NCBI RefSeq assembly: GCF_000027125.1
Contig: NC_017626.1
DNA from: Escherichia coli 042
Lineage (GTDB): Bacteria; Pseudomonadota; Gammaproteobacteria; Enterobacterales; Enterobacteriaceae
Reading direction: 5' to 3' (one strand)
DNA: 64,000 bases
A model generated the notes under the pieces. It was not told the DNA's origin. It did no database searches and saw only the letters and a program-made list of their open reading frames with translations. Of this stretch, positions 62,709 to 63,893 are shown one piece after another. Position 1 is the first letter of the stretch. Each line of letters starts with the position of its first letter. The position numbers were made by a program, and so were the translations under genes.

Positions 62709-63893
62709 ATGACTAAAACAAACCATGAGCTTAGCCCGGCGCTGATCGTGCTGATGTCTATCGCCACCGGTCTGGCGGTAGCCAGTAACTATTACGCCCA
62801 GCCATTACTCGACACCATCGCGCGTAACTTTTCCCTTTCCGCCAGTTCGGCGGGCTTTATTGTTACCGCCGCGCAGTTGGGCTATGCCGCAGGTCTGCTG
62901 TTTCTTGTTCCCCTCGGTGATATGTTTGAACGCCGCCGCCTGATTGTCTCGATGACCTTACTGGCAGCGGGCGGTATGTTAATCACTGCCAGCAGTCAGT
63001 CACTGGCGATGATGATCCTCGGTACGGCATTGACCGGTTTATTCTCGGTCGTGGCACAAATTCTGGTTCCGCTGGCAGCGACGCTGGCTTCACCAGACAA
63101 ACGCGGCAAAGTGGTCGGCACCATTATGAGCGGGCTGCTGTTGGGGATCTTGCTGGCACGAACCGTTGCCGGGTTGCTGGCAAACCTCGGCGGCTGGCGC
63201 ACCGTCTTTTGGGTTGCCTCGGTGTTAATGGCACTGATGGCGCTGGCATTATGGCGTGGTCTGCCACAAATGAAATCAGAAACCCACCTCAACTACCCAC
63301 AGTTGCTTGGTTCCGTTTTCAGCATGTTTATCAGCGATAAAATTCTGCGCACCCGCGCGTTGCTGGGCTGCCTGACCTTTGCCAACTTCAGCATTCTCTG
63401 GACCTCAATGGCCTTTTTGCTTGCCGCTCCACCTTTTAACTACAGCGATGGTGTAATTGGTCTGTTTGGACTTGCGGGAGCTGCCGGAGCGTTGGGTGCT
63501 CGTCCGGCGGGCGGTTTTGCCGATAAGGGTAAATCGCACCACACCACTACTTTCGGTCTGCTGCTGCTATTACTTTCATGGCTGGCGATCTGGTTTGGCC
63601 ACACTTCCGTACTGGCGTTGATTATCGGCATCCTGGTGCTGGATCTCACCGTGCAGGGCGTGCATATCACTAACCAGACGGTAATTTATCGAATACACCC
63701 TGATGCGCGTAATCGCCTGACCGCAGGTTACATGACCAGCTACTTTATTGGCGGTGCCGCCGGTTCGCTAATTTCAGCCTCAGCCTGGCAACATGGCGGT
63801 TGGGCTGGCGTTTGTCTGGCTGGCGCGACGATTGCCCTGGTTAACTTACTGGTCTGGTGGCGAGGTTTTCATCGTCAGGAAGCTGCAAATTAA
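62709..63893 (+). CDS. ygaY: MFS transporter YgaY (intact)
   Basis: 394 aa with multiple TM helices; position after proX. Confidence 0.85.
   Translation: MTKTNHELSPALIVLMSIATGLAVASNYYAQPLLDTIARNFSLSASSAGFIVTAAQLGYAAGLLFLVPLGDMFERRRLIVSMTLLAAGGMLITASSQSLAMMILGTALTGLFSVVAQILVPLAATLASPDKRGKVVGTIMSGLLLGILLARTVAGLLANLGGWRTVFWVASVLMALMALALWRGLPQMKSETHLNYPQLLGSVFSMFISDKILRTRALLGCLTFANFSILWTSMAFLLAAPPFNYSDGVIGLFGLAGAAGALGARPAGGFADKGKSHHTTTFGLLLLLLSWLAIWFGHTSVLALIIGILVLDLTVQGVHITNQTVIYRIHPDARNRLTAGYMTSYFIGGAAGSLISASAWQHGGWAGVCLAGATIALVNLLVWWRGFHRQEAAN

What the first reader, a model, noticed from the sequence alone, without database searches (positions are those of the whole stretch)
62709..63893. 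ygaY MFS transporter is a single intact frame here
From memory, the K-12 locus after proX is annotated as a disrupted transporter (ygaX/ygaY fragments). Here one 394-codon frame with continuous transmembrane helices is present, so this strain may retain a functional transporter.
Basis: partly seen in the sequence, partly recalled or inferred. Interest (0 to 1): 0.2.

Follow-up and report, generated by a model that had tools for sequence, protein, structure and literature searches.

The report
Intact ygaY transporter gene, ordinary
This E. coli window carries the normal, uninterrupted ygaY membrane-transporter gene found in almost all E. coli; only the K-12 laboratory lineage has it broken, by loss of one copy of a 7-base tandem repeat, so the finding is correct but ordinary.

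Summary
Window 62709..63893 (+) is one 394-codon ATG-to-TAA frame downstream of proVWX. It encodes a 12-helix MFS transporter (Pfam MFS_1 E=2.6e-41; AlphaFold pLDDT 95; TM-score 0.84 to SotB/MdfA).

MG1655 annotates ygaY (b2681) as a pseudogene and DH10B as "frameshifted". The K-12 lesion is a 7-bp deletion at window 62963-62969 (codons 85-88, inside TM3), which leaves 88-aa and 305-aa ORFs. E. coli C, a close intact relative, carries GCGGCAT twice in tandem and K-12 carries it once, so the lesion is probably replication slippage.

The intact state is not special:
- The locus is present in 5410 of 5426 complete E. coli genomes.
- The K-12 junction occurs in only 353 of them; those sampled look like laboratory K-12 derivatives.
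- The exact protein is already catalogued on at least 1000 contigs (WP_000169332.1).
- dN/dS between lineages is 0.01-0.04, indicating strong purifying selection.

TCDB places YgaY in the YnfM family (2.A.1.36.3), substrate unknown. It is most likely a proton-coupled exporter of a small metabolite.

Side observation: the proX-ygaY spacer carries a roughly 280-bp repeated element that resembles the TwoAYGGAY RNA motif.

The parts
62709..63893 (+). ygaY coding sequence, 394 codons plus TAA; 12-TM MFS transporter of the YnfM family (TC 2.A.1.36.3)
   Evidence: ORF; Pfam MFS_1 2.6e-41; identical protein WP_000169332.1 annotated in AF40 and ST69; AlphaFold pLDDT 95.3; Foldseek SotB/MdfA/NorA TM 0.83-0.84; TCDB assignment cited in PMC5417439
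62963..62969 (+). Site of the K-12 lesion: these 7 bases (GGCAGCG; placement ambiguous by 1-3 nt) have no counterpart in K-12. They cover codons 85-87, in TM3 (helix 75-94).
   Evidence: Alignments A1 and A3. K-12 ORFs are 88 aa and 305 aa. E. coli C has GCGGCAT GCGGCAT where K-12 has one GCGGCAT. The window reads GGCAGCGGGCGGTAT, which is not a perfect repeat.
62910..62945 (+). Degenerate MFS motif A in the TM2-TM3 loop (residues 68-79, PLGDMFERRRLI)
   Evidence: Aligns to PLADKLGRRRLV of GlcP 4lds. P68 is invariant, and G70 and D71 are conserved in at least 90% of 71 homologues.
62617..62708 (+). Conserved ygaY-proximal upstream region shared with K-12. It presumably holds the native promoter and translation start signals. 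No consensus-like sigma-70 promoter was found, and no strong Shine-Dalgarno sequence was evident by eye.
   Evidence: Alignment A2. The promoter scan found nothing upstream of the start codon. Upstream sequence ...CCTGATGAACAAAAATA-ATG.
62289..62568 (+). Roughly 280-bp repeated intergenic element (TwoAYGGAY-like structured motif). It replaces the REP-like sequence that K-12 has in this spacer, and is present at this locus in about 10% of E. coli genomes.
   Evidence: The Rfam RF01731 hit at 62327-62455 scores 28.2 bits, below the gathering score of 43.
61264..62256 (+). proX, the last gene of proVWX, immediately upstream (context)
   Evidence: ORF translation and RefSeq annotation of syntenic loci
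63962..63990 (+). Promoter-like site (TTAAGA-17-TATAAT, 10/12) downstream of ygaY. It is probably the ygaZH promoter; ygaZ would start just beyond the window end.
   Evidence: In AF40, ygaZ starts 124 nt after the ygaY stop.

Best explanation
Window 62709-63893 is the ancestral, intact allele of ygaY. It encodes a 12-transmembrane-helix Major Facilitator Superfamily secondary transporter of the YnfM family (TC 2.A.1.36) and lies between proVWX and ygaZH-mprA-emrAB. SHOWN: the frame is intact, the predicted fold is complete, the gene is under strong purifying selection across E. coli lineages, and it is highly conserved in E. fergusonii, E. albertii and Citrobacter. SHOWN: the K-12 pseudogene is a lineage-specific loss of 7 bp that shifts the frame inside TM3. 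INFERRED: the loss arose by replication slippage, because the nearest intact allele carries a perfect GCGGCAT GCGGCAT tandem repeat. INFERRED from family and fold: the protein works by rocker-switch alternating access driven by the proton gradient. The buried, family-conserved R151 (TM5) and D312 (TM10) are candidate substrate or proton-coupling residues. Transport is most likely outward, of a small metabolite, by analogy with the paralogue YnfM, a CCCP-sensitive glutarate exporter. The substrate is unknown. The confidence of 0.85 applies to 'intact ancestral allele encoding a functional MFS transporter, with K-12 the exception'. The narrower claim of proton-coupled export of a small metabolite stands at about 0.5, and no specific substrate can be named.
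For: Intact ORF. Pfam MFS_1 at 142 bits. AlphaFold pLDDT 95.3, pTM 0.93. Full-length structural match to SotB, MdfA and NorA, TM 0.83-0.84. Synteny proVWX-ygaY-ygaZH-emrR-emrA. K-12 7-bp deletion giving 88-aa and 305-aa ORFs. Tandem GCGGCAT x2 in E. coli C against x1 in K-12, with only one other nucleotide difference between them. The K-12 junction 40-mer is complete in 353 of 5426 genomes; the 19 sampled have K-12/laboratory-type names or K-12-like sizes of 4.58-4.70 Mb. Locus present in 5410 of 5426 genomes. All seven non-K-12 alleles fetched are intact at 1185 nt. dN/dS 0.008-0.09, mostly about 0.02. 97-98% identity in E. fergusonii, 95-96% in E. albertii, 93% in Citrobacter. The exact protein occurs on at least 1000 contigs. 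26% identity to YnfM over the full length, E=2e-20. TCDB 2.A.1.36.3 (PMC5417439). YnfM is a glutarate exporter sensitive to CCCP (PMC12622518). K-12 ygaY is treated as cryptic or a pseudogene in the literature.
Against: No experiment shows transport by any YgaY orthologue; TCDB lists its function as unknown. No NCBIfam equivalog or subfamily model reaches its cut-off. No consensus-like sigma-70 promoter was detected in the conserved upstream 92 bp, and no strong Shine-Dalgarno sequence was evident by eye, so expression may be low or conditional. Identity to YnfM is only 26% and D312 is not conserved in YnfM, so the direction and substrate inferred from YnfM are weak. Nonsense substitutions in other genomes were not surveyed; only length changes were.
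Confidence: 0.85

Rival explanations
1. The frame is intact but the gene is effectively silent. It would be a cryptic gene, repressed by H-NS/StpA and poorly translated, so 'functional transporter' holds only in principle, and K-12 lost nothing it used.
For: No consensus-like promoter was found upstream, and no strong Shine-Dalgarno sequence was evident by eye. In K-12, H-NS/StpA-dependent chromatin contacts involve ygaY, and transcript levels are low and only rise after osmotic shock or in a stpA mutant (paper 10.1101/2023.07.10.548347). Deletion of K-12 ygaY is used as a neutral control or integration site.
Against: dN/dS of about 0.02 across phylogroups and 93% identity to Citrobacter are not expected for an unexpressed gene. 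The K-12 neutrality data concern an allele that is already broken. ygaY transcripts are detectable in K-12.
Confidence: 0.12
2. YgaY is an uptake symporter for a nutrient or osmoprotectant, in keeping with its position next to proVWX, rather than an exporter.
For: Adjacent to the glycine-betaine/proline uptake operon. It lacks the GP-containing antiporter motif C in TM5 by inspection of residues 134-160. Weak N-terminal matches to symporter families: aromatic acid/H+ symporter TIGR00895 at 77 bits, and GlcP.
Against: The best full-length sequence and structure matches are efflux proteins: SotB, MdfA, NorA, Cmx/CmrA and Bcr/CflA. Its TCDB family contains the exporter YnfM. The other neighbours, ygaZH and emrAB, are exporters. 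The symporter matches cover only the N-terminal half and fall far below their cut-offs.
Confidence: 0.2
3. The intact frame is an assembly or sequencing artefact, or a recent reversion peculiar to this strain.
For: None found.
Against: The same 1185-nt frame occurs in thousands of independent complete genomes and in other Escherichia species and Citrobacter. The window allele does not even contain the slippage-prone perfect repeat.
Confidence: 0.01

Closest known systems
E. coli YgaY (UniProt P76628, b2681; TCDB 2.A.1.36.3), annotated as a pseudogene in K-12
   Same: Orthologous locus with the same neighbours (proX upstream, ygaZ downstream). About 96.6% nucleotide identity. Outside the deletion region there is only one amino-acid difference (T4P).
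   Different: The window allele has the 7 bp that K-12 lacks and reads through as 394 aa. It also lacks the G88C change and the perfect GCGGCAT tandem repeat of the phylogroup-A alleles from which the K-12 lesion arose. The upstream spacer differs: a TwoAYGGAY-like element here, REP-like sequence in K-12.
E. coli YnfM (b1596; TC 2.A.1.36.1), glutarate exporter
   Same: Same TCDB family. Aligns over residues 28-390 at 26% identity, E=2e-20. R151 in TM5 is conserved. YnfM is an MFS exporter sensitive to CCCP.
   Different: A distant paralogue only. D312 (TM10), conserved in at least 90% of YgaY-like proteins, is not conserved in YnfM. No substrate is known for YgaY.
DHA1 drug:H+ antiporters with solved structures (SotB 6kkk, MdfA 4zp0, NorA 8ttf)
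   Same: Same 12-TM fold over the whole length: TM-score 0.79-0.84, rmsd 2.5-4 A over about 380-390 columns.
   Different: Only 15-18% identity. NCBIfam DHA1-type models score far below their cut-offs (Bcr/CflA 50 bits against 200.9). No GP antiporter motif C in TM5 (inspection).

Membership tests
Major Facilitator Superfamily (Pfam MFS_1, PF07690) | Profile match above the curated gathering score | tested here: met
   142.2 bits against a cut-off of 33.4, E=2.6e-41
Major Facilitator Superfamily (Pfam MFS_1, PF07690) | Twelve transmembrane helices in two six-helix bundles | tested here: met
   AlphaFold model with pLDDT 95.3. Full-length superposition on SotB/MdfA at TM 0.83-0.84. Hydropathy gives 11 strong segments and 1 weak one.
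Major Facilitator Superfamily (Pfam MFS_1, PF07690) | Motif A (GxLaDrxGrkxxl) in the TM2-TM3 loop | tested here: met
   A degenerate form, PLGDMFERRRLI (residues 68-79), aligns to PLADKLGRRRLV of GlcP. P68, G70 and D71 are conserved across 71 homologues.
YnfM (acriflavin-sensitivity) family, TC 2.A.1.36 | Orthology to the TCDB member YgaY (P76628, 2.A.1.36.3) | tested here: met
   Syntenic and near-identical to the K-12 b2681 fragments. TCDB assignment quoted in PMC5417439.
YnfM (acriflavin-sensitivity) family, TC 2.A.1.36 | Significant full-length similarity to the founding member YnfM | tested here: met
   BLASTP 26% identity over residues 28-390, E=2e-20
YnfM (acriflavin-sensitivity) family, TC 2.A.1.36 | Proton-dependent export of dicarboxylates such as glutarate, as shown for YnfM | not testable with these tools
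   Needs transport assays. YnfM data are in PMC12622518.
DHA1 drug:H+ antiporter family (TC 2.A.1.2) | Match to curated DHA1 subfamily or equivalog models above cut-off | tested here: not met
   Bcr/CflA TIGR00710 50.4 bits against 200.9; EmrD 37.5 against 479; Cmx/CmrA 52.5 against 400
DHA1 drug:H+ antiporter family (TC 2.A.1.2) | Antiporter motif C (G-x8-G-x3-G-P-x2-G-G) in TM5 | tested here: not met
   TM5 reads KVVGTIMSGLLLGILLARTVAGLLANLGG, with no GP dipeptide (inspection of the translation)
Rfam RF01731 TwoAYGGAY RNA (for the upstream intergenic element only) | Covariance-model score at or above the gathering threshold | tested here: not met
   28.2 bits (window) and 30.6 bits (K-12 lysO-aqpZ copy) against 43; E about 0.09
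Rfam RF01731 TwoAYGGAY RNA (for the upstream intergenic element only) | Outer stem enclosing two hairpins with AYGGAY loops | tested here: inconclusive
   The architecture is recovered by RNAalifold, with 15 of 46 pairs compensated. However, both loops read AGGGAU in the window copy; AUGGAU appears only in some paralogues.

The most novel reading that the evidence does not exclude
YgaY is an active, physiologically relevant exporter of a small carboxylate or stress-related metabolite, consistent with its position in the proVWX-ygaZH-emrAB transport neighbourhood. Its slippage-induced loss would then be an unrecognised K-12 laboratory-strain defect that affects metabolite efflux or stress phenotypes inferred from K-12.
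Probability: 0.15. Interest if true: 0.35.

Novelty: already known. Interest (0 to 1): 0.07.

Why it matters
It matters little. The pseudogene status of K-12 ygaY and the intact MFS gene in other E. coli are already in RefSeq, UniProt and TCDB, and the exact protein is catalogued on at least 1000 contigs. Two modest points are useful. First, the K-12 lesion can be stated precisely: loss of one GCGGCAT unit of a tandem repeat, which shifts the frame in TM3. That gives a clean 7-bp repair for anyone wishing to study YgaY in K-12. Second, strong purifying selection says the orphan transporter does something in natural isolates, so K-12-based screens are blind to it.

Tried and rejected
- NCBIfam scan: 24 weak hits, none near its cut-off, so no specific name can be given.
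- PDB sequence search: only weak matches (GlcP N-terminal half at 3e-8; SotB at 4e-4). The fold search was needed to show the relationship.
- Promoter/terminator scan: no promoter-like site upstream of ygaY and no terminator after it. The two 'terminator-like' hits lie inside the coding sequence and match the number expected from shuffles.
- Literature: searches for ygaY, STM2812, b2681 and P76628 gave no functional study of any orthologue. Most ygaY hits are materials-science acronyms, or uses of K-12 ygaY as a neutral site.
- K-12 junction 40-mer probe: this was designed to hit only deletion-bearing genomes. It also gave 789 unexpected 29-nt matches, which turned out to be the intact tandem-repeat allele. 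They are not further deletions.
- Minus-strand 100-aa ORF at 62282-62584: judged spurious. It overlaps the structured repeat, it is unannotated in RefSeq genomes that carry the same sequence ('none'), and paralogous copies differ by 1-2-nt indels that break the frame.
- Type I toxin-antitoxin (hok/sok-like) reading of the intergenic repeat: considered by eye and dropped, because no Hok-like peptide appears in any frame.
- No terminal inverted repeats were found on the element, so a classical MITE is not supported.

Full report
**Observation.** The window has a single ORF at 62709..63893 on the + strand, with an ATG start, 394 codons and a TAA stop. It lies 452 bp downstream of proX in the order nrdF, proV, proW, proX, then this gene. 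In the nearest complete genomes the order continues with ygaZ, ygaH, emrR/mprA and emrA. The frame is a real gene: Pfam MFS_1 scores 142 bits against a cut-off of 33.4, and RefSeq annotates the identical start and stop in close relatives.

**Comparison with K-12.** MG1655 annotates ygaY (b2681) as a pseudogene of 1178 nt. DH10B annotates it as "MFS transporter, frameshifted". Aligning the window gene to b2681 shows one indel: 7 bases at gene positions 255-261 (window 62963-62969) are absent from K-12. About 39 substitutions make up the remaining differences. In K-12 this leaves an 88-aa ORF ending ...LLAAC* and an overlapping 305-aa ORF starting at the codon for Met89. The older name ygaX for the first fragment survives in the literature as "ig-proX/ygaX" (PMC2887942). 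A 2023 study calls K-12 ygaY cryptic, with nine in-frame stops (10.1101/2023.07.10.548347).

**Origin of the K-12 lesion.** A 40-mer spanning the K-12 junction matched in full in 353 of 5426 complete genomes. The 19 sampled either carry K-12/laboratory-type names (MG1655, ER1709, MFDpir, O16:H48, transconjugants) or have K-12-like genome sizes of 4.58-4.70 Mb. A further 789 genomes matched only the first 29 nt. One of these, E. coli C, has an intact 1185-nt gene that reads CTG-GCGGCAT-GCGGCAT-GTTG at this point, a perfect 7-bp tandem duplication, where K-12 has a single GCGGCAT. Outside this site, K-12 and E. coli C differ by one nucleotide. The K-12 lesion is therefore a recent loss of one repeat unit, most simply by replication slippage (inference), with no further decay. 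The window allele reads GGCAGCGGGCGGTAT (Gly88 rather than Cys88) and lacks the perfect repeat.

**How common the intact state is.**
- The locus is present in 5410 of 5426 genomes.
- In a spread sample of 39 records, 36 show no length change across the gene and 3 are the K-12 type. The one record with +11 bp still has an intact 1185-nt gene.
- All seven non-K-12 alleles fetched (AF40, ST69, E. coli C, O157:H7, APEC O2:K1, Z1323CEC0016, E41-1) are intact.
- The exact 394-aa sequence is in public collections on at least 1000 contigs, named "MFS transporter", within a 90%-identity cluster of 3984 distinct sequences.
- Orthologues are 97-98% identical in E. fergusonii, 95-96% in E. albertii and 93% in Citrobacter.
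- Pairwise dN/dS among E. coli lineages is 0.008-0.09, mostly about 0.02, at dS of 0.04-0.14. This is strong purifying selection.

**What the protein is.** A 71-sequence alignment of diverse homologues (35-56% identity, plus YnfM at 23%) gave an AlphaFold model with mean pLDDT 95.3 and pTM 0.93. The helices correspond to TM1-TM12 with a linker helix at residues 196-209. The K-12 deletion (codons 85-88) falls inside TM3 (helix 75-94).

Foldseek against the PDB places the model on 12-TM DHA1 antiporters over its full length: SotB TM 0.84, MdfA 0.83 and NorA 0.79-0.80, at 15-18% identity. By sequence, it does not reach any curated DHA1 model cut-off, and TM5 lacks the GP antiporter motif. I therefore do not file it as DHA1.

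TCDB lists E. coli YgaY (P76628) as 2.A.1.36.3 in the YnfM family, function unknown (PMC5417439). I confirmed a full-length relationship to K-12 YnfM at 26% identity, E=2e-20. YnfM has recently been identified as the CCCP-sensitive glutarate exporter of E. coli (PMC12622518). The family alignment shows P68 invariant, and the following conserved in at least 90% of sequences: Y28, Q31, P32, Q56, G70, D71, R151 (TM5) and D312 (TM10). All are present in the window protein.

**Mechanism.** Shown: an intact, selected, complete MFS fold with a degenerate motif A. Inferred: proton-coupled alternating-access transport, most likely export of a small metabolite, with R151 and D312 as candidate coupling or substrate residues. 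Unknown: the substrate and the conditions of expression. The conserved 92 bp upstream (62617-62708) has no consensus-like sigma-70 promoter, and no strong Shine-Dalgarno sequence was evident by eye. K-12 data point to H-NS/StpA influence and modest osmotic induction at this locus.

**Rivals.**
- A silent, cryptic gene is disfavoured by the selection signal.
- An uptake symporter cannot be excluded, but it has weaker support than export.
- An artefact or strain-specific reversion is excluded by the population data.

**Side observation.** The proX-ygaY spacer is 452 bp here and 191 bp in K-12. Only the ygaY-proximal 92 bp are shared. K-12 has REP-like sequence in the rest, while the window has a different segment of about 360 bp, present at this locus in 547 of 5426 genomes.

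- Its core (about 62289-62568) has paralogues at 78-81% identity, with a median of 3 matching places per genome in nearly all E. coli. They lie in the yegH-asmA, alx-sstT, aqpZ-lysO and yohP-dusC spacers, and none is annotated.
- The window copy and the K-12 aqpZ-lysO copy both hit Rfam TwoAYGGAY below threshold, at 28.2 and 30.6 bits against 43.
- RNAalifold on seven copies finds an outer stem enclosing two hairpins, with compensatory changes at 15 of 46 pairs. Only seven partly redundant sequences were used, and the single-sequence z-score is only -1.7.
- In the aqpZ-lysO spacer, the 276-bp element is inverted between K-12 and O157:H7 EC4115.
- This element looks more interesting than the ygaY finding itself, but I only partly followed it up.

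**Verdict.** It is already known and ordinary: the window shows the wild-type state of a gene that happens to be broken in the reference laboratory strain.

Noticed in passing
window 62257-62616 (core about 62289-62568; Rfam hit 62327-62455, + strand): The proX-ygaY spacer carries a roughly 280-bp repeated intergenic element that K-12 lacks at this locus; 547 of 5426 E. coli genomes have it here. Paralogues at 78-81% identity lie unannotated in the yegH-asmA, alx-sstT, aqpZ-lysO and yohP-dusC spacers (a median of 3 matching places per genome). It resembles the Rfam TwoAYGGAY RNA but scores below threshold (28-31 bits against 43). Seven copies share a multi-stem structure with compensatory changes at 15 of 46 pairs.
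   Followed up: partly
L012 (NC_000913.3 914858-915351, lysO-aqpZ spacer) against L016 (O157:H7 EC4115): The same element, 276 bp, is inverted relative to its flanking genes between K-12 and O157:H7 (90.6% identity on the opposite strand), while the lysO-proximal flank stays co-linear (95%). No terminal inverted repeats were seen. This suggests an invertible unit or one inserted independently, by an unknown mechanism.
   Followed up: partly
L013 (NZ_AP027764.1, yegH-asmA spacer), positions 1-1480: In one genome an IS621 (IS110-family) copy sits directly next to the yegH-asmA copy of the repeated element. Whether IS621 targets the element was not examined.
   Followed up: no
L004 1520-1535 (E. 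coli C ygaY) and 789 other genomes: About 15% of complete E. coli genomes carry the intact but slippage-prone ygaY allele: a perfect GCGGCAT GCGGCAT tandem repeat, with Cys88 in place of the window's Gly88. Loss of one unit of this repeat generated the K-12 pseudogene.
   Followed up: yes
L003 5577-5583 (MG1655 ygaY): In K-12 the stop of the 88-aa fragment (TGA) overlaps the ATG of the 305-aa fragment (GC-ATG-TTGA). This arrangement could allow translational re-initiation and a split protein. The break lies inside TM3, so activity is unlikely, but this was not tested.
   Followed up: no
window 63962-63990 (+): A near-consensus sigma-70-like site (TTAAGA-17-TATAAT, 10/12) lies between ygaY and the window end. 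It is probably the ygaZH promoter; ygaZ itself lies just beyond base 64000.
   Followed up: no
L008 133-384 (Z1323CEC0016, proX-ygaY spacer): A third variant of the proX-ygaY spacer exists, with an annotated 83-aa hypothetical protein on the minus strand. Together with the other two variants, this makes the spacer a hot spot for intergenic cassette exchange.
   Followed up: no
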